Below, piece after piece: positions 2,143 to 52,627 of a DNA stretch of 64,000 nucleotides (positions are counted from its first letter, which is position 1; each line of letters begins with the position of its first letter). The DNA is taken from positions 104,284,001 to 104,348,000 of the forward strand of contig NC_043004.1 in the NCBI RefSeq assembly GCF_006345805.1, read 5' to 3'. The translations under genes and the position numbers were made by a program. The notes below the pieces were generated by a model. That model worked only from the letters and a program-made list of their open reading frames with translations, was not told where the DNA came from and made no database searches. The stretch is from Octopus sinensis. Taxonomy: Eukaryota.

Positions 2143-2430
2143 ATAGATCAAAACAGTTTGATTCAGAATTCTCGGTACTCTGAGCTTCAAGCTTGTACTT
2201 AGTCTTCGGTCATTGGAGTCTGAATGAGAGGTCAATGAAAGAGAGTCAATGTTTATTGCTGGACGCATAATATATAGATCAAAACAATTTGATTCTGAAT
2301 TCTTGGTGCTCCAGTAGTAAGCATTGACTCTCTTCAATCGATCTATCATTCAGATTCCAATGGCTGAAGACTAACCATGGCCTTGAAACTCAGAGTACCA
2401 AGGATTCTGAATCAAACTGTTTTGATCTAT
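2143..2430. mobile_element. Fold-back element (inverted arms ~2143-2263 / 2310-2430) with hammerhead-like motifs; Penelope pLTR/retrozyme-like
   Basis: Arms are reverse complements (atagatcaaaacagtttgattcagaat... / ...attctgaatcaaactgttttgatctat). Internal partial direct repeat at 2273-2311 with period 131. Confidence 0.7.
2361..2400 (+). ncRNA. Minimal type I hammerhead ribozyme-like motif (stem II degenerate)
   Basis: TGG-CTGAAGA-(ctaaccatggcctt)-GAAA-CTC-A-GAG-TA-CCA: stem I UGG/CCA, canonical CUGANGA and GAAA, near-palindromic stem III, GUA cleavage triplet. Mirror copy on the minus strand at 2172-2212. Confidence 0.55.
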
Positions 2431-2471
2431 CTATCTGTCTGTCTGTCTGCCTATGTATGTATGTATGCATG

Positions 2472-2505
<34 letters not shown>

Positions 2506-2595
2506 TATGTCTGTCTGTCTGTCTGTCTGTTGTCTATGTATGTATGTATGCATGTATATATGTATGTATGTTGTATGTATGTATGTATATATATA

Positions 2596-2636
<41 letters not shown>

Positions 2637-2861
2637 CTGTTTGTCTGTGATACCCGATCCCTTTTGATTGCCTTTTTTCTTTTTCCCCGACCCTTTTGAT
2701 CGGAAGTCTACTTTTTTTTTGTTTTTTTTTTCTTTTTCATTTTCGAAAAGAAAAGCTCTACATTTGTATTTGTCCCTTCTGTGTTCAGCCTGGGTGGTCA
2801 ATAAAGAAAGTTATCTATCTGTCTGTCTGTCTGTCTGTCTGTCTATATACACACACATTAC

Positions 2862-3265
2862 TTATTTCAGTCATTGGACTGTGGCCATGCTGGAGCATTT
2901 TCTTGAAGGGTTTTAGTCAAATAAATCGACCCCAGTACTTATTTTTAAAGCCTGGTACATATTCTTCTATTGCCCCCTTTTGCTGAACTAGTAAGCTACA
3001 GGAATATAAACAAACCAACACCAGTTGTCAAGTAGTAGTGGGAGACAGACTCAGACACACACCCCCACCTACCCCTCACACATGCATGTATATTTATATA
3101 TACAACTGGCTTCTTTCAGTTTTTGCCTACTCAATCCACTGATAAAGCTTTTGTCAGCCCTGGCCTGTAAGTAGAAGATTTTTTGCCCATGGTGCCACAC
3201 AGTGGAACTGAACCCAGAACCATGTGGTTGGAAAGCAAACTTCATACCAAACTATTATGCCTGTG
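2862..3265 (-). mobile_element. Older family A SINE copy
   Basis: Diverged match to family A (tcagtcattggactgtggccatgctggagca ... gaacccagaaccatgtggttggaaagc). Confidence 0.75.
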
Positions 3266-3296
3266 CCTCTGTGTGTGTGTGTGTGTGCGCGCGCGC

Positions 3297-3329
<33 letters not shown>

Positions 3330-4277
3330 CATTCCCACTACTTTCTATTGATCAGTTGCTGTCGCTTCATTTAGATTATGTAAATCAATCTAGTTTCTTT
3401 ACTTTCAACTTAGAAGACAGCCGTCCACCCATACATTTACATCCGCACACTCTACTGATCTTTTATTTATTCATTAATTTCCATTTATGTGTCTGGGAAG
3501 ATTTATTTATTGATAACACTGCAGTGCGGAGAGGAGACACCACCGTGGTGGAGGTCTGGGGTTATCAGGTAGTGTATGTAACTACCTAAAAGTGCTTGGT
3601 GACAACATTTATACATGCTTTTGACCAAGTACTAAACCAGATTATTTATGGCACTTCTTCAGCACCATATTACTGTCACTCACTGGACAGATAAACACTC
3701 ACAGAGGCTGCCTCTTAGTTTGGAAAGAGAGACAAAAGGGAAGAGAGAGAGAGGGAGAGGCTGAGCATGCATTCTACTTCTCAGTTGTAAAGCTCTGGTG
3801 AAGTTTGAAGGTGTCAAATTAGATTGGAAAGCTATCATGGAAGACGTCTGGTGGATCATGGTTCAAATCTATCAGACAGAGTAGATTGGAAGGAAAATTA
3901 GATTACTCTTGTGTCGTTAAGACTTTAATTGATTTTTATTTGATTTCCCTGAGTGTACAACTTTGTAGGCAAAGTGAATTGGATATGTTTATTTTATAGA
4001 TTGTTTTCATTGGAATATATGGTAGCTAGTAGCTTTGTGACCTTGCTTAGAGGTGTTGTTTATTTTTGGCTGTATGGTTAAGAAGCTTGCTTGGCAGCAT
4101 CATGGTATGTGTGACTCTTCTGGTTGGTGGGTGACCAGAGTCTCATGAGAAAAACTTGGTAAAGAGAGACCTAGCCGAAGCATGTCATATACATACGCAC
4201 ATGCATGCATGTATGTGTGTGTGTGTATATATACATGTGTGTGTGTGTGTGTGTGTCAGTGTCTGTGTTAGATGGGT

Positions 4278-4511
4278 GGAGGCATGACTGAGTTAAGAAA
4301 CTTGCTTCCTGACCACATGGTTCAACTTTTGGTCCCGCTGCGTGGCACATTGGGCTAGTGTTTTCTACTATAGCCTTGACCAACCAAAGCCTTGTGAGAG
4401 GACTTGGTAGATGGAAACTGAAGGAAGCCTGTGATATATATATATATTATATATATATAATATATATATATATTATATATATTATATATATTATATATAT
4501 ATATATATATA

Positions 4512-4573
<62 letters not shown>

Positions 4574-4871
4574 AGGCGCAATGGCCTAGTGGTTAGGGCA
4601 GCAGACTCGCGGTCGCAGGATCGCAGTTTCGATTCCCAGACCGGGCGTTGTGTGTGTTTATTGAGCGAAAACACCTAAAAGCTCCACGAGGCTCCGGCAG
4701 GGGATGGTGGTGATCCCTGCTGTACTCTTTCACCACTCTTTCTCCCACTCTTTCTTCTGTTGGCCTGCTCACTTAGCCAGCGGGGTGGCGTCCTTCGAAG
4801 GCTAAAACAATGCGAACGCATTGTGACCAGCAATGTGTAACAACATCTGATGGTCTGGTCGGTCACGTGAT

Positions 4872-4918
<47 letters not shown>

Positions 4919-5143
4919 CTACGTGTGTATGTGTGTGTGTTTCTGTGAGTCCCCCATCACAGCTTGACAACTGGTGTTTGGTTTGTTTACATTCCCATTA
5001 TTACTTACCAGTTCAGCAAAAAAGGCTGATTAATTTAGGACCAGGCTTAAAAAAGTGCAGGGATTTGTGCAGCCAAATATTCTTCAAGGTGGTGCCCCAG
5101 CATGGGTGCAGTCTAACAAGTGAAACAAGTAATGGATAAAAGA
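4278..5143 (+). mobile_element. Older family A SINE interrupted in its internal (TA)n by a family B SINE
   Basis: 5' half at 4278-4435 and 3' half at 4925-5143 both match family A; a family B copy lies between them. Confidence 0.75.
4571..4880 (+). mobile_element. tRNA-derived SINE family B, tail type T1
   Basis: A box TGGCCTAGTGG and B-box-like GTTTCGATTCC. Near-identical to 39527-39830; shares head and body with 59964-60347. Confidence 0.9.
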
Positions 5144-5184
5144 TATAATATTTATATATGTCTATGTACCATATATGTATATAT

Positions 5185-5224
<40 letters not shown>

Positions 5225-5255
5225 TATGTATATATATATATATATATATATATGC

Positions 5256-5304
<49 letters not shown>

Positions 5305-5307
5305 TGC

Positions 5308-5358
<51 letters not shown>

Positions 5359-5533
5359 GCATATGTATTATATAATATATGTTATATATATAAGTATATA
5401 TGTGTGAGTGTGTGTAACCATGCCAAAGTTGACATTAAGTACAGTGCAACCCTGTTGTTCCCCTGATCCTGATAAACCATCCAAATTATGCCAGCATGCA
5501 AAATGGATATTAAATGATGATGAAGATGATGTG

Positions 5534-5573
<40 letters not shown>

Positions 5574-5803
5574 CTGTGTTCATGCTCTATGATGTGTCAA
5601 AGTCAATACATTATGTGTAGAGAATAAAATGTGTAGAAAACGAGATTGCTTTTTTAGAGATGTAACTCGGGTGAACTTAGCCATTTCATAAACAGACATC
5701 AATAAAATAAGCAGCAGACTAAATGCAGGAGTCAGTTGGTTCATTTCCTCGTTAGCACTATTGTCTTGGAAAGGTATGACATCGTTTAATATTTCATGTG
5801 TTT

Positions 5804-6332
5804 TAACCCTTTAGCACTTAAGCTAGTGAAGGTGCATAGTGTAGTGGTTAAGGGTATTCAGCTCATGATCGTAAGGCCATGAGTTCAATTTCCGATGACG
5901 TGTTCTATCCTTGAGCAAGATACTTTATTTCACGTTGCTCCAGTCTACTCATCTGGCAACACTGAGTTGTACCTGTATTTCAAAGAGCCAGCCTTGTCAC
6001 ATTCTGTGTCATGTTGAGTCTCCCTGAGAACTATGTTAAGGGTACATGTGTCTGTGGAGTGCTCAGCCACATGCATGTTAATTTCATGAGCAGGCTGTTC
6101 CATTGATCGGATCAACTGGAACCCTTGCTGTCATGACCGATAGAGTACCATTTTCTATTTTTAACTGGTCATATCCAGCCCCAAAATTCTACCTGTATCA
6201 TGTTGAAGCTGGCCAAATCCATCTTATCACATTCTCAAAATCTCAAATCTACAAGATACAATGTATGATTAATTTTTTTAATGTAAATAAACAAACACCA
6301 CATTTGACAAAGTAATCTGGTTGCTAAAGCTA
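5804..6332. mobile_element. piggyBac-like MITE remnant interrupted by a SINE
   Basis: Left end TTAA|CCCTTTAGCA, right end TGCTAAAG (degenerate inverted terminus). Confidence 0.4.
5826..6150 (+). mobile_element. tRNA-derived SINE family C (CORE-like body, tail T2)
   Basis: tRNA-like head, then ccttgagcaagatactttatttcacgttgctccag, then a tail shared with 59964-60150 and 19212-19539. Confidence 0.8.
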
Positions 6333-8099
6333 TGAAAATTACAGTCTTAATTTTTTTTCATATTCAAGCAAGGAATCAGTTTATAGTTAAGTATTGTTAA
6401 CTGATATTAAATCTTTAGCCATTGTTAGGTTTTCAATAAGTAATAATTTCTTTTCATGTACAAAACAAATTAGTGATTGGTTCGACCTTAGTATACAACA
6501 AGGATTAATACGAGCCAGTGAGGGAGCCTCTGCTCAGTCACTTAATCTGCTAGAAATAGCAGTCGAATATCAAATTACACTCTCTCTACCATCTTAAATA
6601 AAGATTGGTACAGTAGACTGTTTCATCTTTGATATACAAAAATTCATTTGGCTGTGGTTGGAACACCTTTGATCATAGATTTGTTCACTTAGCTATATCT
6701 GACATGGAGGCTAAACAACCATGAGAACTGATCCTTGTTTTATTTATCCCAAAAGTATGAAAAGCAAAAGTAGGATTAAATATCAAAAGAACACTACACC
6801 AATCTGGATAATGTTTAGTGTTTCAATCTCCAGCAGTAGAGTGTAAATATGTTAACATTTTGATGGAGCACCATAGTTTCGGTCCCCGGTGGATTGTGTA
6901 TACTTATAACATGGTACATTAATATTAGTGTGAAGTCTTGTTTGTCACTTTTACATATATACCATATTGATAATAGCTTTTTTTATTCATTTATTTACTT
7001 TTTACTGTTAATATGATGCTTGAGATTGTTTTAGGGGTTGGAAAATAGGAAAGGTGTGTGGTGCATTGATTATGTTTTTTGTTTTTTTTCCTAAGGGCAC
7101 AACATTAGTTAAGTGCTTGTAGTTCCGGAGACTGAAAATGGGTCACAAATTTGGCACATTATCATTGCACTCTAACTCATGCCACAAGAGAGTAATAATT
7201 AATAATGCCATCTCTTCAGTTTCTTTGATCAAACATAATATTCCACTGTGAATCCTTGTCAATTTTTGTGTCTTCATTCTGTAAGTACATTTGATTTCCA
7301 TTATTTACTCTAGTTTGTTCTGCTATTTTTGACTTCAAGGGTAAACCTCAGTTTTGCAATTTTTTCCATGCCTGATTCCTTCACATAAGCCATCCCATAT
7401 TTATTATTAGCACTGTTGCATTAACAAAGGCGGCAAGGTCATTTGATTTCTATTCACCAATAGTCCTCATAAATGTTTTTTGTTAATTTCCCAGTGGCTT
7501 TTCTCTCACCGTAATTAAACCAAGTAGAACAATGTAAAAACACAGGATTTTTCTACAAGAATATCTTTCTTCAACAGCAGTTGTTGCTGTTTAGTTCTAG
7601 GTTTACCTGATTGAGGAGACCTACAATCAAAAGCCTTCCAACCATGACTACCTCATCTTTATTTTTCTCTTCAAGACAATGTATTTAGAATTATGTAAAA
7701 GGCCAAAGAAAAAATGTGAACCTTATAACCCTCTTTTATCTAGAAAATTGCAATGAAGACATTGAAACTAAGAGGTATTAGTCTTCTTTCAATAATAGGA
7801 AAAATTATGTCTAAAAGTTTGAGATATTTTTAATAAGATTATTTATTTGCATGACCTGTTATGAATAACAGCCAATTTCCCTTAAATGACATCCAACCAT
7901 CTTGAAAAGGAAGGACATATTGTATAGTGTAGTCCTGGATTATACATAGCTGTGGAATGGCTTCAGCTGGAATACTTTTGATCTGCTGAATTAAGGCTGG
8001 CCAGGAGCTAAAAATCAAACTAGACACCTGTTTCTATTATGTTCTAGATTCTCACCACCTGGCACAAAGCCACCTCTTTCAATACTACTCCCCACTCAA

Positions 8100-8330
8100 T
8101 TGAGGGGCTCATGTTTTGCAAGTTACTTACTGACCTTGCTGGTACTGTGTAACAAAAAAAAAAGCCCCCAGAACACTCTATCTAGTGGTTGACATTAGGA
8201 AGGGCATCTAGCCATAGAAATCATGTCAAAGCAGACAATGGAGTTTGGTGCCATCTTTTGACTTACCAGCTCCTGTCAAACTGTCCAACCTGTGTCAGCA
8301 TGGAAAACAGATGTTAACGATGATGATGAT
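8100..8330 (+). mobile_element. Short copy of the RTE 3' UTR/tail
   Basis: Matches 49095-49258 (gttaggaagggcatccagcc ... agcatggaaa ... gatgatgat). Confidence 0.7.
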
Positions 8331-9330: not shown

Positions 9331-9380
<50 letters not shown>

Positions 9381-18451: not shown

Positions 18452-19113
18452 ATGGAGGAGAAAAAGATGTTGAATCAAAATTAGATTTAATACAAAATAG
18501 GATTCAATACATATGCGCATTTCAAAGGACAATACAAATATGTAAGAAAATGTTATAACCATAGTAGTTATACTTAAATTTATGCATTGTCATTTTCATC
18601 AGTGTAAAGAATTTTCTACTAGTCCACCTGTTACATTATATTCTACTATACACACATGGCCCTGTTTATTATACTTTGTCTCAACCTGTTACCATTGTTT
18701 TAAACATACCAACATACCTGTTAGCTTTCATTCTTATTTTTATGTTATAGTTTTACCTCACATATAGACGTGCATACACATTGATGTATCTGTCTCCCCA
18801 CCCCCACACTTTTGGTCTCTCTTACTATTATTATTACTGTTACTTTTCCCCTTTTAAAACTTGCTTGCAAATATCAAAATTTTCCCCCCTATTACCCCAT
18901 TTGTATCCTCCCTTATTTTTTTTAAACCTTTTTTTTGATGTCCTTACAAAAATTCTTCACACTGATAAAAATGACAATGCATAAATTTAATTATAATTAC
19001 TATGGTTATAATTTTTTTCTTACATATTTGTATTGTCCTTTGAAACGTGCACATGTATTGAATCCTATTTTGTATTAAATCTAATTTTGATTCAACATCT
19101 TTTTCTCCTCCAT
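18452..19113. mobile_element. Fold-back element with ~165-bp inverted arms (18452-18615 / 18949-19113) and degenerate hammerhead-like core; Penelope-like
   Basis: Arms are reverse complements. Minus strand 18568-18607 reads ttaca-CTGATGA-aaatgacaatgcat-AAA-tttaag-TA. Confidence 0.6.
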
Positions 19114-19170
19114 TTTTCTATAATTGTTTATGGTATTTTTATACCTATAACAATATCTTTCAATATATAT

Positions 19171-20806: not shown

Positions 20807-21029
20807 CATACATACATACATACATACATACATACATACATGCACACAGTTTCCATCTGGAGCATCGCTTTGCAAGATTTAATCCCCAGTACTCATTTTT
20901 TAAAAGTCTGGTACTTTATTCTATTGGTCTTTTTCACCAAACTGATAATTTATGGGGATGTAAACAAACTAACAGTGGTTATCAAGTAGTTTGTGGAGAG
21001 GACAACATAAACACATGCACACATATTTG

Positions 21030-21355
21030 TTTTGCAAGATTCCTGATGTGAAATCACGTATTGAAACAAATATTGTTATATTTTGGGATGATCATTTCTT
21101 TTTGTGTCGAATAAACACACGCTCTGTGTATTCGTTCTTCACCTCAGCTTTATTATTGCTTTTATTTTATTGTCATTTATCTAAAATCTTTCATCACACA
21201 TCCTGTGACCTCTTCAGTGATTCTACATTCCATGTCTCTCCTCCATTCACTGAAGAGGTCACCAGATGTTTGATGAAAAATTTCAGACAAAGGACATTAA
21301 AATAAGCACAATAATAAAGCTGAAGGGAAGAACGAATATAGAGTGCATGTTTATT
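21030..21355. mobile_element. Fold-back element with hammerhead-like motifs in both arms (21110-21220 / 21247-21355)
   Basis: Right arm tca-CTGAAGA-ggtcac-cagatgt-ttgat-GAAA-AATT-TC; left arm is the mirror image. The 3' extension is homologous to 32200-32290. Confidence 0.7.
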
Positions 21356-21387
21356 TGCCACATACAAAAAAAAAAGAAAAAACATCC

Positions 21388-21539
21388 ATGGTGTGTGGTA
21401 AGAAGCTTGCTTCCCAACCACATGATTCTGAGTTCAGTCCCACTGCATGGCACCTTGGGCAAGTATCTTCTACTATATCCTCGGCCGACCGAAGCTTTGT
21501 GAGTGGATTTGGTAGACAAAAGCTGAAAGAAACCCATTG

Positions 21540-21574
<35 letters not shown>

Positions 21575-21793
21575 GTATGTATGTGTTTGTTGTTTGTGTC
21601 TGTGTTTGTACCTCTACTATCACTTGACAACTGATGTTGGTGTGTTTACGTCCCTGTCTGTTAGCGGTTCAGCAAAAAGTGATCGATAGAATAAATACTA
21701 GGCTTCCAAAGAATAAGTCCTGGGGGTGATTTATTTGACTAAAAGTGGTGCTCCAGCATGGCCACAGTCAAATGACTGAACCAAGTACAAGAG
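21388..21793 (+). mobile_element. Family A SINE
   Basis: Full alignment to the family A pattern. Confidence 0.85.
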
Positions 21794-22224
21794 TATCCCA
21801 AAATATGACAATACAATATATATACACACATAATGGTCTTTCTGTCTTCCAAATCCACAAATTCATCCACACAGTATTGGTTAGCCTGGGGGCTATTTTT
21901 GGAAGAAAATTACCCAAGGTTCCATGCAGTGGAACTGAACCTGAAACCACATAGTTGTGAAGCAAGCTTCTTAACCACACAGCCATGCTTGTGGCTACTG
22001 GTGATATTTCAAATATTGTCTACAGCTGATTGAGCACAGTTTCAGTTTACATCTAAAGAACAGCTGTAATTGAGTGAATATTAATTTCAGTTGATTATCA
22101 ATAACCGCTATTCACTTTATCAACTTGCTCAATAAAAAAAACAAAAAAAAAAAACTCACACTGATAAGTGCTCAGTTTTATTTTCATATGGAGCTTTTAT
22201 GGATATTGTGGGTTAGTCCACATC

Positions 22225-25561: not shown

Positions 25562-27412
25562 CTCTTTGTTTTGATATCATGCAAAATGCACTGATTGTAA
25601 ACAGCTACCATGGCTTTATTTGTTTACAATCTTCTGTGGAAAAATACTTGATCATTGAGCTGTTTGTATAAAAAGGGGAAATATTACCTTATTTGGAAAC
25701 AGGCAATTACAGAAAAGTGGTTGTTAAAATGATGATTATTATATATTTATGTATATCTATATTTATATATGTATGGCATGTAGGTTCAAGCACATAACCG
25801 CAAAACTAAATGGAGATAAATATAGTTAATACCAAAGGTAGAGTGAAATATCAAATTTTGTTGAAATTGAATATAATTCATTACTCTGAGAGATGATGCA
25901 CCTCTTGTGTTTTTCCAGTTTTATCAGTTTCTTCCAAAGATTGGTAATGTGAAACTCAAAGCAACAATTTGTAAGGTTTTATAGTTTCAGTAAAATTTTA
26001 CACACATATATATATGAGTGTGTGTGTGTGTGTGTGTGAAGAAAGATTTCCCTAAATTTGAAATTATTAATTATCTTTAAAAAATCTTCAAAAATATGTC
26101 TTACACATTCTGTTTTTTAAGATTTCTCTATAATTTATAATTTTTGATTTAAGAAAATCTTTCTTCAAATACTGTGACTATATCAAGAATTCTTTCTCAA
26201 AAAATTGTTAAATATGTATTTATAAGAGCACATTTGCATTTATGTGTGTTATACAAACATGTATATATGCAATTCCATGCATATATGCAAATGTAATGCA
26301 CATTATAAACATATGTTCATGTACATTCTTCATATTGCTTTCATAAATACACATAAGGCATATAAATCTAGTACATTTGGATCAATGAGGGAGCCTGTAG
26401 CATATGGTCAGTTGAGCTTTTTGGAAATCTTGGCCAAATTAACCCACAAATCACTTCATTAGTGTCATGAATAATGAAGGTTACAATAAAGAATGTATTT
26501 CCCTAATTTACAAGAAGTCAGGATGGCCTTGGCTGGAATGCTTTCAATCATAGGTTTTCTGGTTCAATACTGCCTAAGGTCTTAGGTCAGTCATGTGCTC
26601 TGGGACCCATATTGCTGGAGCTTAACCTGATTTCCATGACTGAGATGAAAACACTCCCCCTTGTATGTGGACTGCGTTAGTTGTAAACAACATCATACAT
26701 ACATACCATAAGTATAAATAAATGCAGATGTAAAAAAAAATGTGTACATATTTCTATTGTTTGCATAAAATATAACCACTTATATACAAACATATGTAAC
26801 TGCAGTTATGTTCTTGCATTGAGACATGCATTTTTCTGCACAATACCTATTTCATAGTTAGTGATAAATACGCATTACTAAACACCTATAAACAAATATT
26901 CATACAAATACACAAACTTAATAAACATACATATACACAAATATATATATATATATATATGTATATATATGTATAAACCTCATATATACAAATTCTTTCA
27001 TGTAGTCATTCATTCATCACATATATATATATATATATATATACATACATATATGCGTACATCTATATATATACTCACACACATATTTATGTGTGTATAT
27101 ATATATATATATATATCTATGTGTGTATATATATAAAAATATATACAGGCATTCAATAAGTACACATAGAAAGTTAAGTGATATAAACACCACTTCACAA
27201 CATTAATCACACACAAATGTGCATAAAGAACACTATACACACATTTATATTCACTGAATCCATTCACATATACATACACATGTACATGACTATACATACA
27301 TATACATGTATACATATGTATGCGTGTGTGTGTGTATGTGCAAATATATATATATATATTATATATATATATATACACACACACATACACTCACACACAC
27401 ACAGAGTATATT

Positions 27413-31818: not shown

Positions 31819-31867
31819 GGTCTTAATAATAATAATAATAATAATAATGATAATTATAATAACAACA

Positions 31868-32300
31868 ACACACGCACTATATATTTGGTGTTATTTTGCT
31901 TCAGTGTTATTTATTTTTTACATTAATCTTAATCTTATTTCGGCCAGAGTTCTTTCGTCACACTCCTGTGGCTGCATCAGTGGTCCTTTGCTTTCTTCTT
32001 TCTTATTTGCATTTTTTTGAAAATACAAAATGGCTGACGGTTAGTAAGGAGAGACACACAAATAAGAAAGAAGAAAGCAAAAGACCACTGATGCGGTCAC
32101 AGGAGTGTGACGAAAGAACTCTGGCCGAAATAAGATTAAGTTTAATGTAAAAAATAAATAACACTGAAGCAAAATAACACCAAATATATAGTGCGTGTGT
32201 TTTTATTGGCTAAACTGGCAAAATGACCATTCCGAAATACAACAATACCTGTTTCAACACACGATTTCACATAAAAATTCTTGCACAACGAATATATAAA
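31868..32300. mobile_element. Young fold-back element with 142-bp inverted arms (31868-32009 / 32059-32200), each with a hammerhead-like motif
   Basis: About 4 mismatches between arms by eye; 49-bp spacer; right arm continues ~100 bp into a tail homologous to 21030-21110. Confidence 0.85.
32083..32126 (+). ncRNA. Minimal type I hammerhead ribozyme-like motif (A9C core variant)
   Basis: GACCA-CTGATGC-g-GTCAC-aggagt-GTGAC-GAAA-gaac-TC-TGGCC: stem I 4/5 bp, perfect 5-bp stem II, CUC cleavage triplet. Mirror copy on the minus strand at 31942-31985. Confidence 0.6.
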
Positions 32301-32322
32301 CGTAATAATAATAACAATAATA

Positions 32323-32925: not shown

Positions 32926-33040
32926 TAATAATAATAATAATGATGATGATAATAATAATGTATGCACCACATATGCTATATAGTTGACATATGCCCCTTT
33001 GACCCCCAAATAGGTCAGAAGGAAAATGAAAAGATAGAGA

Positions 33041-33200
33041 CAACCCTCTTAAGTATGAAATTGTCTGGCTATGGAAAATGAAGAAGGTGAAGAGAGTGCC
33101 AATTATTGTTGGTTCGTTGGGAACAGTATCAGAAGGCTTCAAGAGGAATATAAAGGAAATTGGAATAGAGTTCCCAGTAGAACTGTTACAAAAGGCTTGT
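33041..33200 (+). pseudogene. R4/Dong-like RLE fragment, second subfamily
   Basis: PLKYEIVWLWKMKKVKRVPIIVGSLGTVSEGFKRNIKEIGIEFPVELLQKAC. Confidence 0.75.
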
Positions 33201-33337
33201 ACTAATAAGAACGAAGTATGAATAGTTCTTCATTTTATCAATCTTGGAAGGTTAAAAGGCAAAATTTACTGAAAAACATTTTGTCTGGATTTACCTTTCT
33301 TAGCCACTTTAGCACCCACATTATTATTATTATTATT

Positions 33338-33887
33338 GAGTGAGAGAGCAGTGCATGCCATCAAAGTGACACTGGGGTAAAATATACGAAGCTCAATATA
33401 CCCATCATGACTACCCGTCTGATAAGGGTACACCAGGCACATGCATCACAACCATATGTGCGCGACATGGTGATCTCATATCAAGATAAACTGCACATGA
33501 CCTTGCAGGTGGGGCCCAGTTAGAATTTTCTTCAGGTTGAGTGGCCCATCCCGCTCAAACGGTCCCTGAATAAGGGTTGTTTAAGGATATTGAAAAAACC
33601 ACCCATGTCTCCAGAGGTGAATTATTCAAACCCCAAAGAATCCCTCTCAACACATGGCTATGATGCTCCCCCACTACTTCTGCTCGTGATCAGAGATGCA
33701 CATATCGTCAGCCACTAAGAGACATGCTCAGCTGGTTAAGGTCAAACAACTGACAATCAAATCTGTGGTATTGAACAGAATATTTGCTGTATCCCATCTT
33801 TTATACCAAGACAAAACAATGTACATGATAACACTTCCAATCAGTTAAGATCAGAAGCCATGAGAGCCACTGCCTGGTACTGCATCA
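33338..33887 (-). mobile_element. Second copy of the TAA-associated non-coding retroposon
   Basis: Reverse complement of 30622-31149, flanked by (TTA)n. Confidence 0.85.
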
Positions 33888-33949: not shown

Positions 33950-34250
33950 TTCTTTTTTTATCTCAGGTTTTGTTGTAACACTTGGAGTCTTGCATGCGTA
34001 GCAGGCTTACTACCTGCAGCCTACATTACCATGCTATTTGTTCTTTTCAGCTACCTAATACTTTCCTGGTTATTCTGGCCATGCCAGGGAGGCAAACCTT
34101 TTGTAACAACAGTTCTACTGGGCACTCTATTCCAATTTCCATTATATTCCTCTTGATGCCTTCTGATACTGTCCCCAAGGAACCAACAGTAATTGGCACG
34201 ATCTTCACCTTTTTCCTTTTCCATAGCCAGGCTATGTTGTACTTAAGAGG
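33950..34250 (-). pseudogene. R4/Dong-like RLE 3' end, same subfamily as 33041-33200
   Basis: Reverse complement matches 33041-33200 and continues to the stop and 3' UTR; bounded by (TTA)n. Confidence 0.75.
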
Positions 34251-34881
34251 ATTATTATTATTATTGTTTTGTCCACTTTATCATGCTTGCATGAGTCAGG
34301 AAGAAATTGTTGAGGTAGATTTTGCATGGCTGGATGCTCATCCTGTCACCAACCCTTGCCTGTTTCCAAGCCAGGTAATATATCTCACAGCCAGACATGC
34401 TTTTTTAAAGGAAAACTAGAAACAAATAACATCGCTTATATAATGGTGAAGGTCATTCACAACCATCTCACAATATCTAAATAAGGGTACACAAAGACAC
34501 ACACACACACACATATACAATGGATTTCTTTCAGTTTCTGTGCAGCAAATATGTAATGAAAATATTTAAGGATGAACTTCTTTTCTGCACCCAAGAATGA
34601 GCTGAATGTTTAACTATTTTTTAAAGACTTTTGATGGTGGAAAGAATAAAAAAATAAATAAATAGTTAATTAAAATAAATTTTAAGAAATACTAAGGTCA
34701 TTTTGAAGAGAGTATCTTCTAAGAAAAGCTTGTTTGAAAATGTGTAACATCTACAGCGAAGTGGGAAAATTTACAAATTCAGAAAGGTGGGAAGTTAACA
34801 GAAAAAATAAAAATATAGCACAAACAAGTCCCAAGGTACAATTTACAGCAACACAACAATCTTAGCAAATAAATAAACACA

Positions 34882-40629: not shown

Positions 40630-40763
40630 TACTTATATGCAATTAAATATATGTCATGTCATAGAGTCACCAATAGTTTTGCATCCGTAAAGTTAAGCAC
40701 TTTATGGATGTGAAACCATTGGTCACACTATGACTGTACACATATTTTTAATAGCACATAAAT
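40630..40763. repeat. Imperfect palindrome containing the 3' half of a hammerhead-like motif
   Basis: Arms meet at a taagc loop (40694-40698); right arm ggatgt-GAAA-CCA-T-TGG-TC. Confidence 0.65.
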
Positions 40764-40999
40764 ACATTACTGTTCTCTGTTTTAGAGTGTGTGCTTCTTT
40801 TTCGGATATATGATCCACTGACAATATATATATATTTTTTTATATTGCCCACAGGGGGCTAAACATAGAGGGGACAAACAAGGACAGACACAGGGATTAA
40901 GTCAGTTTTTTCAACCCCAGTGCGTAACTGGTACTTAATTAATCAACCCTGAAAGGATGAAAGGCAAAGTCGACTTTGGTGGAATTTGAACTCGGAATG

Positions 41000-41585: not shown

Positions 41586-42003
41586 TTCTTTTACTCTTTT
41601 ACTCTTTTACTTGTTTCAGTCATTTGACTGCGGCCATGCTGGAGCATCACCTTTAGACGAGCAACTCAACCCCGGACTTATTCTTTTGTAAGCCCAGTAC
41701 TTATTCTATCGGTCTCTTTTGCCAAACCGCTAAGTGACGGGGACGTAAACACACCAGCATCGGTTGTCAAGCAATGCTAGGGGAACAAACGCAGACACAC
41801 AAACACACACACGCATATATATATACATATATACGACGGGCTTCTTTCAGTTTCCGTCTACCGTCTACCAAATCCACTCACAAGGCTTTGGTCAGCCCGA
41901 GGCTATAGTAGAAGACACTTGCCCAAGGTGCCATGCAATGGGACTGAACCCGGAACTATGTGGTTGGTAAACAAGCTACTTACTACACAGCCACTCCTGT
42001 GCC
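41586..42003 (-). mobile_element. Family A SINE, young full-length
   Basis: High identity to 53668-54060. Confidence 0.9.
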
Positions 42004-45271: not shown

Positions 45272-46024
45272 TCACATCACTTTCCCTGTCAGCACTACAG
45301 CACGGGACCAGAGGTAGGACTTGATTATCTGCCCATCTTGGATTCGTAAACCCTTCTCTCCCATTTGTTTCCTCATCTTTAGCTCGGATATCAGGTTCCT
45401 CCGGCGAATTCTCTCTCTTAGTGAGTATTCCTCGCGAAAACCCATATTGGGGTCCTCCCAGGCATGCGTCTGAGCTCTGTTCAGAAAGACTGAAGCCTCC
45501 CGATCAGAAGAAAAGATTACCCTTATTGGGCGTGGTCTAGTATCTGCGGTTGAGTTCGCTTGGAATCTTCCTAGCCGAGCGACCTTAAGGACACTGACCT
45601 TTTCGTCCACAGAGAACAATTTTCCAACCAAAATGGAAACAAAATTAATGTCATCTTTTAGGCGGTTTATGCCTGTATCACAGGTGGATTCCGCTTTGCC
45701 ATATATTATTGCCGATCTTGAGTGGGCAAAAAGTTCTCTACTATGAGCTGCGGTATTCGATTCTTCGTTGGAGGATTTCGAAAGAGTGGTTTCATAGCCA
45801 TCGGACTTATGTCGGCCTGTGGGGTCGATCGGAATGGATTTAGTGGTCATAATTTTCCCGCCTGGTTTGGAACTGCACTGCCTCTTCTTCGGTTTGGGGG
45901 AGCACCACTCCCCAGATGAACCCACATCGAGATCGTTCAGAATTGGTTGAGCAATGGCATTAATGGGAAGGACAAGTGAAGGAGAATCCAAACAGATTTT
46001 ATCGTGATCAGGTTTCATAGCCAA
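45272..46024 (-). CDS. LINE ORF1 (RNA-binding/chaperone); open frame extends upstream to ~46230
   Basis: Lies upstream of ORF2; C-terminal pattern IIYG.AES...RLGR...RPRPIRVIF...RER..R..L..EL..R...GE..LRI..G.I typical of CR1-group ORF1. Confidence 0.8.
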   Translation of the reverse strand: MAMKPDHDKICLDSPSLVLPINAIAQPILNDLDVGSSGEWCSPKPKKRQCSSKPGGKIMTTKSIPIDPTGRHKSDGYETTLSKSSNEESNTAAHSRELFAHSRSAIIYGKAESTCDTGINRLKDDINFVSILVGKLFSVDEKVSVLKVARLGRFQANSTADTRPRPIRVIFSSDREASVFLNRAQTHAWEDPNMGFREEYSLRERIRRRNLISELKMRKQMGEKGLRIQDGQIIKSYLWSRAVVLTGKVM

Positions 46025-46316
46025 ATCTGCCCCTCTGGAGTTTTGACTACGTTTCTTCTTTTGGGGAGAACAACGGTCTTCAGGCGGGTTTGAGTCTACG
46101 CTCCTCGAACTAGGTTGGGGAACCTCCGGGACCGAAAAGGCAGATGAGGAAGAATCCGCACAGGAACGATCATGTGCAGGAACGACCGCCGGTTCCTTCG
46201 CCTTCTTTGGTCGCTTCGATACATCTGGGTTTTAAAACTTTTACTTTCCGTGAACACTGCTAGCAAATTGGAGCAAACACCTGTGTGCTTTTCCTAAATA
46301 CAACAATATATGTATA

Positions 46317-46552: not shown

Positions 46553-46585
<33 letters not shown>

Positions 46586-46644
46586 ATATATATATATATA
46601 TATATATATGTATCAGACTATAAATATATATATATCTATGAAGG

Positions 46645-48375
46645 TTGCTGAATAAAGAAAATGAATGGGATAAAGAGAGCCTGCCGAACGTTGACCCAAC
46701 AGAGGGACCAGCTATCAGGGTTGATAGTTTCTTAGTAGCTAAGGCAATTAGAAGCATAAAGACAGGGAAAGCCCCAGGCCCATCAGGTATCACTGCAGAG
46801 ATGCTCAAAATATCTGGTAGTGTCGGCTATAGCCTAGTCACCTGTATAGTTAATCAGGTGATACATGAAGGAGTCATACCCAATGACTGGTGTAGCAGCA
46901 TAATAGTCAACTGCTACAAAGGTAAAGGTGATGCCCTAGATACAAATAATTACAGAGGTATCAAGCTGTTGGATCAGGTGATGAAGGTTACAGAGAGGGT
47001 CATAAGCCAACTAATTAGAGAGAAAGTTAGTTTAGATGAGATGCAGTTTGGTTTCGTGCCAGGGAAAAGTACCACTGATGCTATATTCCTGGTAAGGCAG
47101 CTGCAGGAGAAATACCTAGCCAAAGATAAGGCCCTGTACCTGGCTTTTGTTGACATGGAGAAAGCCGTCGACAGGGTCCCCCGATCCCTCATATGGTGGT
47201 CAGTGAGGAAACTAGGAATAGAAGAATGGTTAGTGAGAGCTGTGCAAGCCATGTACAGGGACGCTGCTAGTAAGGTGAGGGTTGGAAATGAGTACAGTGA
47301 AGAATTCCGGGTAGAGGTAGGGGTCCACCAAGGCTCAGTCCTCAGCCCCCTCCTATTTATCATAGTCCTCCAGGCAATAACGGAGGAATTCAAGACAGGA
47401 TGCCCCTGGGAGCTCCTCTATGCTGATGACCTTGCTCTAATTGCTGAGTCATTATCAGAACTGGAGAAGAAGTTTCAGGTGTGGAAGCATGGTTTAGAAT
47501 CGAAGGGCCTTAGAGTCAACCTAGCTAAAACCAAAGTCCTAATAAGTAGGAAGGTAGACAAATCACAAACGCCTTCAGGTAGATGGCCCTGCTCGATCTG
47601 TAGAAAAGGTGTAGGTAGAAACTCTATAAGATGCACCAAGTGTAAGCTATGGACACATAAGAGGTGCAGCAATGTCATAGGAAGGCTAACTAGGAAGATG
47701 GCTTTTGTATGTGGCAGATGCTCGGGAGCATTAACCTCTGAAAATCTGCAGAAAACAACTTCCGTCACTTTCCAGGGGGAAAAACTAGAAGTAGTTGATA
47801 GCTTCCGTTATCTTGGTGACCAAGTCAGTAGTGGGGGTGGGTGTGCTGAAAGTGTAACGGCTAGAGTAAGAATAGCCTGGGCAAAGTTTAGGGAGCTCTT
47901 ACCTCTGTTGGTGACTAAAGGCCTCTCGCTCAGAGTAAAAGGCAGACTGTATGATGCATGTGTACGAACAGCCATGCTACATGGCAGTGAAACATGGGCC
48001 GTGACTGCTGAGGACATGCGTAAGCTCGCGAGAAATGAAGCTAGTATGCTCCGTTGGATGTGTAATGTCAGTGTTCATAGTCGACAGAGTGTAAGTACCT
48101 TGAGAGAAAAGTTGGACCTGAGAGGAATCAGATGTTGTGTGCAAGAGAGACGATTGCGCTGGTATGGTCATGTGGTGAGAATGGATGAAGATAGGTGTGT
48201 GAAAAAGTGCCACACCCTGGCAGTTGAGGGGACCTGTGGAAGAGGTAGACCCAGGAAAACCTGGGTCGAGGTGGTGAAGCACGACCTTCGAACTCTAGGT
48301 CTCACCAAGGAAATGACCAGAGACCGAGACCTATGGAAGTATGCTGTGCGTGAGAAGACCCGGCAAGACCAGTGA
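46645..48375 (+). CDS. Partial RTE ORF: reverse transcriptase with embedded PHD-like Zn finger (endonuclease lost by 5' truncation)
   Basis: KAPGPSG, NYRGIKLL, QFGF, DMEKAVD, GVHQGSVLSPLLF, YADD, FRYLG, GSETW, RRLRWYGHV, GRGRPRKTW; C-x2-C...C-x2-C-x4-H-x2-C...C-x2-C at ~47590-47722. Confidence 0.9.
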   Translation: MLNKENEWDKESLPNVDPTEGPAIRVDSFLVAKAIRSIKTGKAPGPSGITAEMLKISGSVGYSLVTCIVNQVIHEGVIPNDWCSSIIVNCYKGKGDALDTNNYRGIKLLDQVMKVTERVISQLIREKVSLDEMQFGFVPGKSTTDAIFLVRQLQEKYLAKDKALYLAFVDMEKAVDRVPRSLIWWSVRKLGIEEWLVRAVQAMYRDAASKVRVGNEYSEEFRVEVGVHQGSVLSPLLFIIVLQAITEEFKTGCPWELLYADDLALIAESLSELEKKFQVWKHGLESKGLRVNLAKTKVLISRKVDKSQTPSGRWPCSICRKGVGRNSIRCTKCKLWTHKRCSNVIGRLTRKMAFVCGRCSGALTSENLQKTTSVTFQGEKLEVVDSFRYLGDQVSSGGGCAESVTARVRIAWAKFRELLPLLVTKGLSLRVKGRLYDACVRTAMLHGSETWAVTAEDMRKLARNEASMLRWMCNVSVHSRQSVSTLREKLDLRGIRCCVQERRLRWYGHVVRMDEDRCVKKCHTLAVEGTCGRGRPRKTWVEVVKHDLRTLGLTKEMTRDRDLWKYAVREKTRQDQ

Positions 48376-48419
48376 GAACAATCAAAATCAAATCATATAT
48401 CAGAAAGCAGGGGTTAAGT

Positions 48420-49097
48420 GACCCATCCGTTCGTGTCCGCTGTCAGCCTCATCTGGCACCCGTGCCGGTGATACGTAAAAACACCATTCTCTCATGGCCG
48501 TTTGCCAGCTCTGCCTGGCCCCGTGTCGGTGGCACATAAAAGCACCATCCGTTCGTGTTCGTTGCCAGCCTCGCCTGGCCCCGTGCCGGTGACACATAAA
48601 AGCACCGTCCGTTCGTGGCCGTTTGCCAGCTCTGTCTGGCCCCGTGTCGGTGGCACGTAAAAGCACCATCCGTTCGTGGCCGTTTGCCAGCTCTGTCTGG
48701 CCCCGTGTCGGTGGCACGTAAAAGCACCATCCGTCCGTGTCCGTTGCCAGCCCCGGCTGGCCCCCGTACCGGTGACACGTAAAAGCACCGTCCGCTCGTG
48801 GCCGTTTGCCAGCTCTGTCTGGCAACCGTGTCGGTGGCACGTAAAAGCACCATCCGTCCGTGTCCGTTGCCAGCCTCGGCTGGCCCCCGTGCCGGTGACA
48901 CGTAAAAGCACCGTCCGCTCGTGGCCGTTTGCCAGCTATGTCTGGCAACCGTGTCGGTGGCATGTAAAAGCACCATCCGTTCGCGTCCGTTGCCAGCCTC
49001 GGCTGGCCCCCGTGCCGGTGACACGTAAAAACACCATCCGTTCGTGGCCATTCACCAGCTCTGTCTGGCACCTGTGCAGGTGGCACGTAAAAAACAC
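48420..49097 (+). repeat. Tandem array of 11 units of 60-62 bp, two alternating variants, in the RTE 3' UTR
   Basis: TAAAA(G/A)CACC-type anchor at 48476, 48537, 48597, 48658, 48719, 48780, 48842, 48903, 48965, 49026 and 49088. Confidence 0.95.
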
Positions 49098-49254
49098 CCA
49101 CTACACTCGCGGAGTGGTAGGCGTTAGGAAGGGCATCCAGCCGTAGAAACACTGCCAGATCTGACTGGGCCTGACGAAGCCTTCCAGCTTCACAGACCCC
49201 AGTTGACCCGTCCAACCCATGCTAGCATGGAAAGCGGACGCTAAACGATGATGA

Positions 49255-49290
<36 letters not shown>

Positions 49291-49292
49291 TA

Positions 49293-49364
<72 letters not shown>

Positions 49365-49824
49365 ATATACATTATATATGTATATATATAATGTATATGT
49401 ATATATATAATGTAGATGTATATATATAATGTATATGTATATATATAATGTTGCATATATATATACATTACACTTACACACACTTCAAATTTACTTGCCA
49501 CGCACACACACATACCTCCCTGTTTCTGATCTGCCTTTCTGACTTGCTAGGGTACCCCCACACCACTCCTTTAATTCTACTACTGCCTGCTACTAGCCAC
49601 TGTCCACCATACACACACATACACACACACGCACACACTCACACACACACCATTGTCATATCGCACACCTTTTTTACCATTCCCTCTTTGATTCAGCTCT
49701 CCTGTTTTTAAAAAACATTTTCCTCCTTTTTTACCACTTCTGTCTTTTTAGTATGTGACCTCGTGAAGACTACCTGCAATTTTTTTCCTCTGTCCTCCCG
49801 TCTCGGGATCTTTCTTTCTCCTAT

Positions 49825-49859
49825 GTTTCCGACGAAGAGCTCCGCTCGAAACGTCATAC
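49825..49859 (+). ncRNA. Minimal type I hammerhead ribozyme-like motif (U4C variant) in a probable Penelope-like 3' fragment (~49550-49950)
   Basis: GTTT-CCGACGA-a-GAGC-tcc-GCTC-GAAACGTC-ATAC: perfect stem II, palindromic ACGT stem III, GUC triplet, stem I 3/4 bp. Confidence 0.6.
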
Positions 49860-49950
49860 CATCCTTCTTCCATTTTCCTGAGCGCCTAATAATAATAATA
49901 CTGTTATTGTTGCACGTGTTGTTGTTTTTTCTGTTTTCCCGTTTGGATTA

Positions 49951-49994
<44 letters not shown>

Positions 49995-52359
49995 TGACAG
50001 GTTTCTTTCAGTTTCTGTCTAGCAGATCCACTCACAAGGCATTGTTTGGCCCGAGGCTATAGTAGAAGACACTTGCCAAAGGTGCCACACTGTGGGATTG
50101 AACCTGAAACAATGTGGTTGGAAAGCAAGGTTCTTAGCACATAGCCACGCCTGCATCTTCTTCAACATGTTTTTCCATGCTAGTATAGGTTTCGACAGAG
50201 AAGTATTTGATGATGCAAGATTTTATGGTTGGGTGCTCTTTCTGTTTCTAACTTCTACCTGTTTTTCATAAATGGGATTATTTCTTTTATTTCAAAGATC
50301 TTTGAAAACACTGGGCAACCTGTTTTATTGTCTGTTTAAACCAAGAATGTAAACATCATTCATCTTATCATTCAAGCAAAGCCATAGAATATCATCAACA
50401 TTTATGAACATTCACATATACATGCATGGACACACACATACACATGCATGCATGCACATTCACATACACACATACAGCTCAAGTTTCATATTCATTTTGT
50501 AGTCAAGCTTATTCTGTGTGAATATTAAACTCTTGCGCTTCTAACAGAAAGTTTATTCATCATGATAAACAGGTATATTTTCACAGGTGTAAAACAAAAT
50601 GAATTTCTCCTATGAAACTTTGCATGAACAGATTGAAATTGCTTGGAACTAATGATAATAGCTGTAGTTTTGATCTCTCATTTGAACTGTTCTTTATATT
50701 TATATTTATCATTCTGTTTATTACCTGTCCCTTATAAAACTCATGAATCCCCTATAAATTTCTCATAAGTCCCTTACCTAGATAAAGCTTTCCATTTTTT
50801 TGGTAACTTATGGAGTTTACCTGGAATAGAGAGAAAGAGAGAGAGAGAGAGAAAGACAGCATATCTTTGATGAGGTTGGCAAACCTAGCCAATTGGTTGA
50901 TTTGCTGAACAGTCAAACAATCAATTAGTGAATTGGTTAAATGATTAACCAATTGACTAATAAAGAAGTGAAACAGAACCAGTGCTTGTGTTTATTATTG
51001 GCATAATGACCCTCTTAAGATACAACAAAAAATCATTTGTGGAAAATGAGTGGAAGGTGAAGCTCACCAAGCAACCATGTTAGATTTGGTCCCACTTTGT
51101 AGCATCTTGGCTAAAATGTCTCCTTCTGTTGCTTTGAATTGGCTATTGGCCATCCTGAGACAATGGTAAAGGATGCCAAACAAGAACCCTTGTGAGTGGA
51201 ATTTGATAGAAGGAAATTGTGCAGAAGTCCAGGCTATATGTGTATGTGTGCAAGCATGCATGTTTGCATCTGTCATCATATATTGGCAGTATTTATAAAC
51301 ATCACTACAAAACATGTCATAAACAACCCCTTTGTTACTTTCACTATCAGAAAGCAGCAAACAAGTGACCGACCGATTGGAAACTATAAACAGCAACAAT
51401 ATTCTTAACAAATTACAGCATAGAAAAAAAAAACATATAAATGAAACAAATTTTAAAACTTTATTTTATTTATTTTAAAATTTAACAACTCCTTACTCTG
51501 CTGAACTTCAGCCTCATTCTGATATACATGTCTGACCAATCAAATTCCTCTCCTTTTTCCCTTCCTGTCATTTCCTTTTATTTATTTATTCTATTTTCTT
51601 TCCTTTCTGTTTTTCTTTATATTCATTTATTCTTTTATTTATTTTGTGATCATCAACTCTTCATCTGTCTCCTTCATATACCCCCCTCCTTTTTTTCTGT
51701 TTTATTTCTATATTTATCATATAGCATGCAAGAACGGTGCAATCATTAGACTGTCAAAAAGAGATGTCTTGTAACATTTGTTCTGGCGCTTTATGTTTTG
51801 AGTTCAAATACCATTGAGGTCAACTTCATCCTTCTGGAGTCAATAAGATATAAGCACCAGTTAAGTATCAGTGATATCACTCCCACCATCATTATCACCC
51901 ACATTCCAGGTCTTATGCCTATATAAGAAACTTGTGATGCATACAAGTGGAAAGAATTTGGAAGATGGAATTTTGGCAAAAAAAAACAAAAAAACGTGTG
52001 TGTGTGTGTATTTAGGTGTTTGACACAACAATATCAGTTAAAAATAAAAGTATCATGTCAAAGGGTAACTGATATAATAAGGGAATCAAAAACTGATAAA
52101 TCTTTCAGAAGAAATCCAAAATATATTTGATACAATTTGATGAAAATATGAACAGAAATATCAGAGCCTTACTTACTCCAAAGCATTCACAATCTGCTTA
52201 GACATAAAATACATTCTATACAATTCTTGAAAAAGGAAAATGAAAGCATTGTATAGATAGTAAAATGAGAAAGTGACATTATCATCATCATCATCATTAT
52301 TATGATAGTATTAGAAATATCATTGATGGTGGGGACTTGAGAGTGGTGATTTTAATAAC

Positions 52360-52392
<33 letters not shown>

Positions 52393-52482
52393 AACACACA
52401 AATATGCAACATAATATCTGTATATATGTGTGTATATGACTGAAAAAAGTAAAATAATATTTATATATATAAATATATATGT

Positions 52483-52627
52483 AATAATTCTATTTTGGAA
52501 TGTTGGATTTTGAAACCGATAAGCTATAAATAATAACGTGTAAATATTGGGCTGCAAAAATCCTTTCTACTTATTATTATTTATAGTTTATCAGCTTCAA
52601 GATCCAACATTCCGAAATAGAATTATT
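52483..52627. repeat. Inverted repeat with 54-bp arms (52483-52536 / 52574-52627)
   Basis: Arms are reverse complements with a few transitions; shares CATTCCGAAATA with the tail at ~32228. Confidence 0.8.

What the first reader, a model, noticed from the sequence alone, without database searches (positions are those of the whole stretch)
2143..52627. Recurring architecture: at least five fold-backs with hammerhead-like cores from several unrelated sequence families, plus further fold-backs
Seen: head-to-head inverted structures at 2143-2430, 18452-19113, 21030-21355, 31868-32300 and 40630-40763 all place hammerhead-like motifs pointing outward from the centre. Additional fold-backs at 26037-26167 and 52483-52627 have no recognisable core. 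Several sit next to microsatellites. Inference: a common integration mechanism (Penelope RT template switch or fold-back priming) repeatedly creates ribozyme/anti-ribozyme hairpins. At this density the genome would hold very many, giving a large unannotated pool of dsRNA substrates in a lineage known for heavy ADAR editing, if the cephalopod assignment holds.
Basis: inference. Interest (0 to 1): 0.7.

Follow-up and report, generated by a model that had tools for sequence, protein, structure and literature searches.

The report
Penelope retroelement stumps with mirrored ends
The eight fold-backs are real, and seven are decayed, back-to-back end pieces of Penelope-like jumping genes, a layout already published; the eighth has the same layout but belongs to a short tRNA-carrying repeat that likely borrows Penelope enzymes.

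Summary
Each is a copy of a dispersed repeat family. Typically a main arm has a fixed 3' end, and an inverted arm starts about 45-60 nt further in and joins at a variable point. Seven trace to Penelope-like elements (PLEs). FB1, FB2, FB5 and FB8 are Hydra clade. FB3/FB4 and FB6 are Neptune/Nematis type. The hammerheads are the PLE's own terminal ribozymes. This layout is published (PMC8557442, PMC3846280, PMC4209133), and the scan has reported it before on other octopus DNA. Corrections: the families are not all unrelated, only 1 of 16 arms passes a strict hammerhead descriptor, and FB5 holds half a core. Fixed start sites, 13-16 nt target duplications and inverted arms longer than the main arm favour priming from both nicked strands over pure fold-back. 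RNA editing was not tested. Two extras: the young FB4 family has C at ribozyme position 9 (29 of 30 copies). FB7 belongs to a ~270-nt, partially tandem, tRNA-bearing family with no hammerhead found.

The parts
1031..1106 (-).
1118..1255 (+). FB8 main arm with tail; Hydra-type PLE 3' end
2087..2265 (-). FB1 main arm, Hydra-clade PLE 3' end; tail at 2087-2142; hammerhead with GAAA changed to GAAG
2270..2311 (-). FB1 extra 42-nt piece, again beginning at the tail-less start site
   Evidence: 88% direct match to 2139-2180
2310..2430 (+). FB1 inverted, tail-less arm; both core boxes and GUA site present, helix II damaged
18452..18615 (-). FB2 inverted arm; holds the only hammerhead in the window that passes the strict descriptor (18508-18602)
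18612..19161 (+). FB2 main arm, Hydra-clade PLE 3' region; hammerhead core with G8A; (TA)n on both sides
21024..21241 (-). FB3 main arm with tail; older relative of the FB4 family
21247..21370 (+). FB3 inverted arm; both core boxes, decayed helices I and III
26037..26094 (-). FB6 inverted arm (approximate inner end)
26106..26205 (+). FB6 main arm (approximate start); truncated downstream of the family's U3-A8 hammerhead, hence no core here
31851..31865 (+). Likely left target-site duplication of FB4 (15 nt, 1 mismatch, in AAT-rich sequence)
31864..32009 (-). FB4 inverted arm; begins 47 nt inside the family's usual internal start
32021..32304 (+). FB4 main arm; hammerhead-like motif at 32088-32125 with C at position 9; tail at 32248-32304
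32303..32317 (+). Likely right target-site duplication of FB4
40630..40686 (-). FB5 inverted arm; GAAA half only
40688..40826 (+). FB5 main arm with tail; starts inside helix II, so the CUGA box is missing; Hydra-type family
52485..52563 (-). FB7 inverted, tail-less arm
52568..52667 (+). FB7 main arm with 42-nt tail (52626-52667); 3' end of a ~270-nt tRNA-bearing, partially tandem family without a detected hammerhead

Best explanation
Seven of the eight fold-backs are 5'-truncated, head-to-head copies of the hammerhead-bearing 3' ends of Penelope-like retrotransposons, likely made when the element's enzyme nicks both strands of an AT-rich target and primes one cDNA from each nick. The two cDNAs would start at two fixed RNA sites about 45-60 nt apart, which gives the one-sided tail. 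They would stop at variable points and be joined centre to centre, often with a few filler bases, leaving a 13-16 nt target duplication. The hammerhead appears twice, pointing outward, because it sits next to both start sites. The eighth (FB7) has the same layout and is likely a non-autonomous passenger of the same machinery. Shown: family identity, layout, fixed ends, variable junctions, target duplications. Inferred: two priming events, end joining, mobilisation of FB7.
For: Link to coding sequence: the FB4 family runs into a 505-aa open frame with RT and GIY-YIG-type motifs (L181; Pfam RVT_1 E=2e-4, below cut-off). FB1 and FB2 sit in complete units of inverted end + RT + EN + 3' end (L187, L191; L188 and L189 show inverted end + EN + 3' end) with YRDD and, in L191, CxCX5C, as printed for Hydra elements (against 56, 59, 60). 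FB5-family loci L228 and L235 carry Hydra-like RT fragments at weak E (6e-4 to 1e-3), and the FB6 family follows a GIY-YIG with CxxC linker and CCHH-type residues. Layout: 74 of 199 distinct sampled loci have an upstream head-to-head arm within 1.5 kb. In FB4, 8 of 12 inverted arms start 51-56 nt short of the 3' end, while 30 of 30 main arms end within 12 nt of it. Sequencing contigs show loose ends piling at 32247 (runs X1, X3, X15), with a few at 32304 (X1). Genome sample: 2,732 exact matches to a 22-mer from the FB4 hammerhead (control 0); among the first 100 listed, 9 outward pairs within 3.5 kb against 1 inward and 2 direct (counted by hand; about 0.3 expected). Target duplications: 23 of 76 loci against 8-17 in 30 shuffles. 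PMC11167929 (parts 1-2 of 4 read): a PLE protein cuts and extends both strands and starts at two adjacent sites that define the tail.
Against: Arms of one locus mostly share subfamily variants (4 or 5 mismatches in about 45 site comparisons in FB4), which fits a single template as well as two RNAs from one source. About 3-4 of 16 junctions have short palindromes, as self-priming predicts (PMC3846280, passages). In the FB2 family 5 of 7 inverted arms are not tail-short against my reference end, so its end points are more complex. FB3 and FB4 in the window start away from the usual site. Most older loci show no clear target duplication. Sampled loci are top BLAST hits, not random. Clade names rest on visual motif comparison, not a tree. 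No coding partner was found for FB7.
Confidence: 0.9

Rival explanations
1. Same PLE origin, but the second arm is made by fold-back (self-priming) of the first cDNA or by template switching, as the first reader and PMC3846280 suggest.
For: Short junction palindromes at L024, L015, L027 and the window's FB4 (read by eye). Within-locus arms are slightly closer than between-locus arms (FB4 2.8% vs 3.6%, FB1 9.8% vs 12.1%, FB3 12.0% vs 13.7%) and share subfamily variants.
Against: The inverted arm extends further 5' than the main arm in 6 of 16 junctions, by more than 1 kb in L002 and L005 (the L003 margin is only 7 nt and three others lie near simple repeats). Its outer end is fixed at an internal site. 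FB2 shows no within-locus advantage (9.5% vs 9.2%).
Confidence: 0.25
2. The fold-backs are MITEs or other DNA-transposon palindromes with long terminal inverted repeats, and the hammerhead-like words are incidental.
For: Palindromic shape and short length. Rfam finds no hammerhead, and the descriptor count in the window is not above shuffles.
Against: Most family copies have one arm only, centres vary, ends are asymmetric, and families lead into RT/GIY-YIG frames. Family alignments give full type I cores with palindromic helix III.
Confidence: 0.02
3. The hairpins are kept by selection as ribozyme/anti-ribozyme switches or as ADAR substrates for the host.
For: Each would fold into a 50-200 bp duplex if transcribed. 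Octopus has high hyper-editing and dsRNA potential, and lizard Penelope is heavily edited (PMC5625713, passages).
Against: Only 1 of 16 arms has an intact core. Arms diverge 3-12% at non-CpG sites in the four families measured, about as much as unlinked copies, as neutral decay predicts. No transcription or editing of these loci was shown.
Confidence: 0.05

Closest known systems
Insertion unit of endonuclease-positive Penelope-like elements (PMC8557442 Fig. 2 legend and text; PMC3846280)
   Same: Inverted 5'-truncated copy at the 5' end, one-sided tail, partial tandems, target duplication, AT-rich or (TA)n targets, head-to-head orientation.
   Different: Tails here are 42-60 nt against the 30-40 nt quoted, target duplications 13-16 nt against 8-10 nt in the rotifer, and the window copies are stumps without coding sequence.
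Minimal type I hammerheads of metazoan PLEs (PMC4209133)
   Same: Palindromic short helix III, extra base between positions 9 and 10.1 (FB3/FB4), U3-A8 core variant (FB6), and dual motifs on opposite strands 100-700 bp apart, all described there.
   Different: The FB4 family has C9 in 29 of 30 copies; the FB1 family majority has C4 and no closing pair in helix II; FB2 has a ~70-nt helix II insert. I did not find these variants in the two of four parts read.
Hydra clade PLEs, including Hydra-1_Obim (PMC8557442 section 11 and supplement rows)
   Same: YRDD reverse transcriptase, CxCX5C linker, canonical hammerhead with ACCA-N-TGGT helix III (FB5), (TA)n targets.
   Different: FB1, FB2 and FB5/FB8 are three distinct families; identity to Hydra-1_Obim was not computed.
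Non-LTR retrozymes and tRNA-headed SINEs (PMC7229834 passages; 10.64898/2026.07.22.740005 part 1 of 5), for FB7
   Same: Short non-coding unit in tandem, dispersed, probably PLE-mobilised; tRNA-like A and B boxes as in SINEs.
   Different: No hammerhead box found on either strand; the tRNA-like module lies inside a circularly permuted ~270-nt unit rather than at a fixed 5' head.

Membership tests
EN+ Penelope-like element (FB1-FB6, FB8) | Single frame with RT and C-terminal GIY-YIG endonuclease | tested here: met
   L181 505-aa frame; RT and EN fragments in order in L187 and L191. FB3, FB5 and FB6 are linked by fragments only. Pfam scores are below cut-off.
EN+ Penelope-like element (FB1-FB6, FB8) | Inverted 5'-truncated copy at the 5' end | tested here: met
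   74 of 199 sampled loci across the seven families including FB7; 9 outward vs 1 inward pairs in 100 genome hits
EN+ Penelope-like element (FB1-FB6, FB8) | One-sided tail between two fixed ends | tested here: met
   Clear in FB1, FB3, FB4, FB5, FB6; irregular in FB2 (5 of 7 inverted arms not tail-short)
EN+ Penelope-like element (FB1-FB6, FB8) | Type I hammerhead motif in the pseudo-LTR | tested here: met
   Family alignments; mostly decayed in the window copies
EN+ Penelope-like element (FB1-FB6, FB8) | Placement among PLE clades on an RT tree | not tested
   No reference PLE proteins were available as tool sequences; motifs compared by eye with the PMC8557442 supplement
Hydra clade (FB1, FB2, FB5/FB8) | YRDD RT, CxCX5C linker, no CCHH | tested here: met
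   YRDD in L187 and L191, CxCX5C in L191, decayed in L187/L189; FB5 only by weak thumb fragments
Active hammerhead ribozyme | Self-cleavage | not testable with these tools
   Needs an in vitro cleavage assay
PLE-mobilised non-autonomous element (FB7) | Partial tandems, inverted 5' copy, one-sided tail | tested here: met
   17 of 25 loci with an upstream tandem piece; 15 of 42 with an inverted arm, 8 of those 15 at 42-64 nt short
PLE-mobilised non-autonomous element (FB7) | Shared end with an autonomous PLE | tested here: inconclusive
   No match in the other fetched loci beyond family copies or by 4 short motifs in the PMC8557442 supplement; the genome was not searched exhaustively
Non-LTR retrozyme (FB7) | Type I hammerhead in each unit | tested here: not met
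   No CUGANGA-type box on either strand of the majority unit; Rfam found none in L213
tRNA-derived SINE (FB7) | tRNA-like head with A and B boxes | tested here: inconclusive
   A and B boxes in the alignment; Rfam tRNA 20.5 bits, E=0.12, below cut-off; ARAGORN 0 of 18 loci; the module is internal, not at a fixed 5' end
MITE | Fixed symmetric terminal inverted repeats and constant interior | tested here: not met

The most novel reading that the evidence does not exclude
The FB7 family is a Penelope-dependent parasite that has replaced the hammerhead with a tRNA-like module. Host tRNA-processing enzymes would cut its multimeric or circular RNA to unit length, as the ribozyme does in retrozymes. 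Together with the young FB4 family spreading with a C9 core, this would show that ribozyme cleavage is dispensable or replaceable in the PLE cycle in vivo.
Probability: 0.15. Interest if true: 0.65.

Novelty: new member of a known kind. Interest (0 to 1): 0.25.

Why it matters
The architecture is ordinary for Penelope-like elements, so the finding as stated adds new octopod families, not a new system. It has modest value as a test bed. Thousands of young FB4-family copies allow the open question of how PLE inverted ends form (two primings or self-priming) to be tested statistically. PLE stumps are also a built-in source of short perfect hairpins in an animal with heavy A-to-I editing; at this window's density (8 in 64 kb, a window picked for the feature) there would be on the order of 10^5. 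The FB7 family is the one lead that may be undescribed: searches listed no paper whose title or abstract start describes a tRNA-bearing, ribozyme-less PLE passenger.

Tried and rejected
Rfam on the window: microsatellite-driven microRNA noise, no hammerhead in the 150 rows shown of 277; none on a canonical FB5-family copy either, so Rfam is insensitive to these motifs.

Pfam and PDB: no Pfam family for the 359-aa L008 frame, only sub-threshold RVT_1 and GIY-YIG for the others, no useful PDB match. The 26 longer homologues (23-44% identity) were unnamed except two with uninformative labels.

Sequencing runs: no RNA holder listed on record. Three guessed-RNA runs and one unlabelled run, all contigs, cover the FB4 family, but its A>G differences cannot be told from copy variation. 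Editing at a single locus was not examined.

FB7: ARAGORN 0 of 18 loci; RNAalifold gave only 3 pairs and no covariation support for the cloverleaf or its extended stem; no autonomous partner. A possible splice donor and acceptor around the tRNA-like module was seen by eye and not tested.

The shared-variant test did not separate one template from two. Earlier scan notes near this place or like FB7: none. MITE and chance explanations were rejected as above.
Full report
SETTING. The window lies on contig C8 of a 2.72-Gb animal genome, G000. It is 37% GC and full of microsatellites. It is octopod-type by inference: linked RT fragments resemble by eye Hydra-1_Obim in the supplement of PMC8557442, and earlier scan notes call this genome octopus.

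OBSERVATION. The inverted structures are real and beyond chance: 10 close inverted pairs in the masked window against 0 in each of 30 shuffles. These comprise six of the eight fold-backs, a nested piece of FB1 and three pairs of other repeats; FB5 and FB6 were confirmed. The hammerhead cores are mostly fossils. One arm of 16 (FB2 left) passes my strict descriptor, and one more (FB4 right) the relaxed one; the counts do not exceed shuffles. FB5 and FB8 lack the CUGA box, and FB6 and FB7 have no core in the window.

FAMILIES. Each fold-back belongs to a dispersed family. First-look candidates were 572, 530, 3944, 1479, 1103, 211 and 444 for FB1 to FB7, of which 40 each were scored. I analysed the top 20-30 loci per search, so samples are biased to well-preserved copies. 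The FB4 family is young (95-97% identity) and leads upstream into a 505-aa open frame with RT motifs, a cysteine linker and a GIY-YIG-type endonuclease with CCHH-type residues; this is Neptune/Nematis type by the description in PMC8557442. FB3 is an older relative, with homologous coding fragments in L102, L104, L108 and L113. FB1 and FB2 occur in units of inverted end, RT, endonuclease and 3' end (L187, L191; L188 and L189 without the RT), with YRDD and CxCX5C, the Hydra signature. The FB5/FB8 family has weak Hydra-like RT fragments upstream in L228 and L235. The FB6 family follows a decayed GIY-YIG frame.

RIBOZYMES. Family alignments give type I hammerheads with palindromic helix III: canonical in FB5 and FB2 (long helix II), with an extra base after position 9 in FB3/FB4, and U3-A8 in FB6. 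PMC4209133 (parts 1-2 of 4 read) describes the extra base, the U3-A8 variant, and dual motifs on opposite strands 100-700 bp apart. The FB4 family has C at position 9 in 29 of 30 copies (exact-motif count 44 to 1). That A9 matters for catalysis is recalled knowledge. PMC11167929 found ribozyme mutants did not affect insertion in vitro.

LAYOUT. An upstream head-to-head arm lies within 1.5 kb in 12/30 (FB4), 13/28 (FB1, after removing two loci counted twice), 7/30 (FB2), 10/25 (FB3), 9/24 (FB5, one locus not scored), 8/20 (FB6) and 15/42 (FB7) loci, the window's own included. Outer ends fall at two sites about 45-60 nt apart, except in FB2. A 22-mer from the FB4 hammerhead has 2,732 exact matches; the first 100 listed include 9 outward pairs, 1 inward and 2 direct within 3.5 kb. 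Target duplications of 13-16 nt are plain in L003, L027, L028, L029, L195, L094, L103 and L111. Pooled, 23 of 76 loci share 11 nt or more against 8-17 in shuffles; the window's FB4 has a 15-nt candidate in AAT-rich sequence. This is the structure in Fig. 2 of PMC8557442 (passages, section 11 and supplement rows read) and in PMC3846280 (passages).

MECHANISM. Of 16 distinct FB4-family junctions, 11 have 3-11 unaligned bases, 4 have 25-58 (partly alignment gaps) and 1 has a 3-nt overlap. In 6 the inverted arm reaches further 5' than the main arm. A fold-back copy must be nested in its template, and a tail-less first strand cannot supply the tail. Two primings, one from each nick, at the two start sites shown in vitro (PMC11167929, parts 1-2 of 4) are therefore the simpler account; this step is inferred. 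The extra tail-less piece inside FB1 fits repeated priming at the internal site. Against this, a few junctions have short palindromes, and arms of one locus mostly share subfamily variants, so snap-back may finish some junctions and both arms usually come from one source element.

FB7. Its family is a ~270-nt unit found as partial tandems (17 of 25 loci), with inverted tail-short arms and often simple-repeat flanks. It holds a tRNA-like module with A and B boxes. In the majority sequence this module is closed by a predicted ~23-bp stem, which covariation does not support. No hammerhead box and no coding partner were found. It works like a PLE passenger, at about 0.65 by my estimate, but fails the retrozyme test. 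Earlier scan notes describe tRNA-headed octopus repeats that do carry a hammerhead; none matched FB7 by sequence.

EDITING. Each fold-back would form a 50-200 bp duplex if transcribed. PMC5625713 (passages) reports high hyper-editing and dsRNA potential in octopus and heavy editing of Penelope in lizard. Transcription and editing of these loci were not shown. I found no PLE coding sequence in the window and did not establish whether it lies in a host intron.

LITERATURE LIMITS. Searches cover only the open library. Of the bioRxiv retrozyme preprint I read part 1 of 5, and its supplements are closed. Of PMC7229834 I read passages. Repbase and Dfam were not available and may already hold these families.

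VERDICT. Observation largely right, Penelope origin right, architecture already published. Interest 0.25, carried by the FB7 family and the C9 ribozyme variant.

Noticed in passing
window:32440-32760 (+), 33020-33210 (+), 34085-34260 (-): Three decayed C-terminal fragments that look like the restriction-like endonuclease of R4/Dong-type non-LTR elements (label recalled, not from a call), next to (TAA)n. The last two are 88% alike and face each other tail to tail, a different kind of inverted pair.
   Followed up: partly
window:30627-31149 and 33338-33887: A 550-bp repeat pair in inverted orientation, 86% identical, 2.2 kb apart; a longer potential duplex than any of the PLE fold-backs.
   Followed up: no
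window:42390-45182 (-): 931-aa open frame with endonuclease (Exo_endo_phos) and RVT_1 domains, a well-preserved LINE; a 319-aa frame at 45275-46231 may be its first ORF.
   Followed up: partly
window:46642-48372 (+): 577-aa RVT_1 frame with a weak PHD-finger match, followed by a 61/123-nt tandem array at 48423-49092.
   Followed up: partly
window:54170-55164 (-): Broken mariner-type transposase (Mos1 HTH).
   Followed up: partly
L001-L030; window:32088-32125: The young FB4 family carries C instead of A at hammerhead position 9 in 29 of 30 copies; A shows at about 15% of summed contig depth in run X15.
   Followed up: partly
L197-L221: The FB7 unit has, by eye, a splice-donor-like word upstream and a branch/acceptor-like word downstream of its tRNA-like module, recalling PLE 5' introns.
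   Followed up: no
L184:4628-6640: FB4-family copy with a direct-orientation internal piece at its 5' junction instead of an inverted arm.
   Followed up: no
window:1276-1631, 21392-21794, 41612-42003, 53666-54061, 56626-57025 and others: A very common ~370-nt SINE-like repeat occurs in both orientations, several copies within 0.4-2.5 kb of each other; it may supply more dsRNA than the PLE stumps.
   Followed up: no
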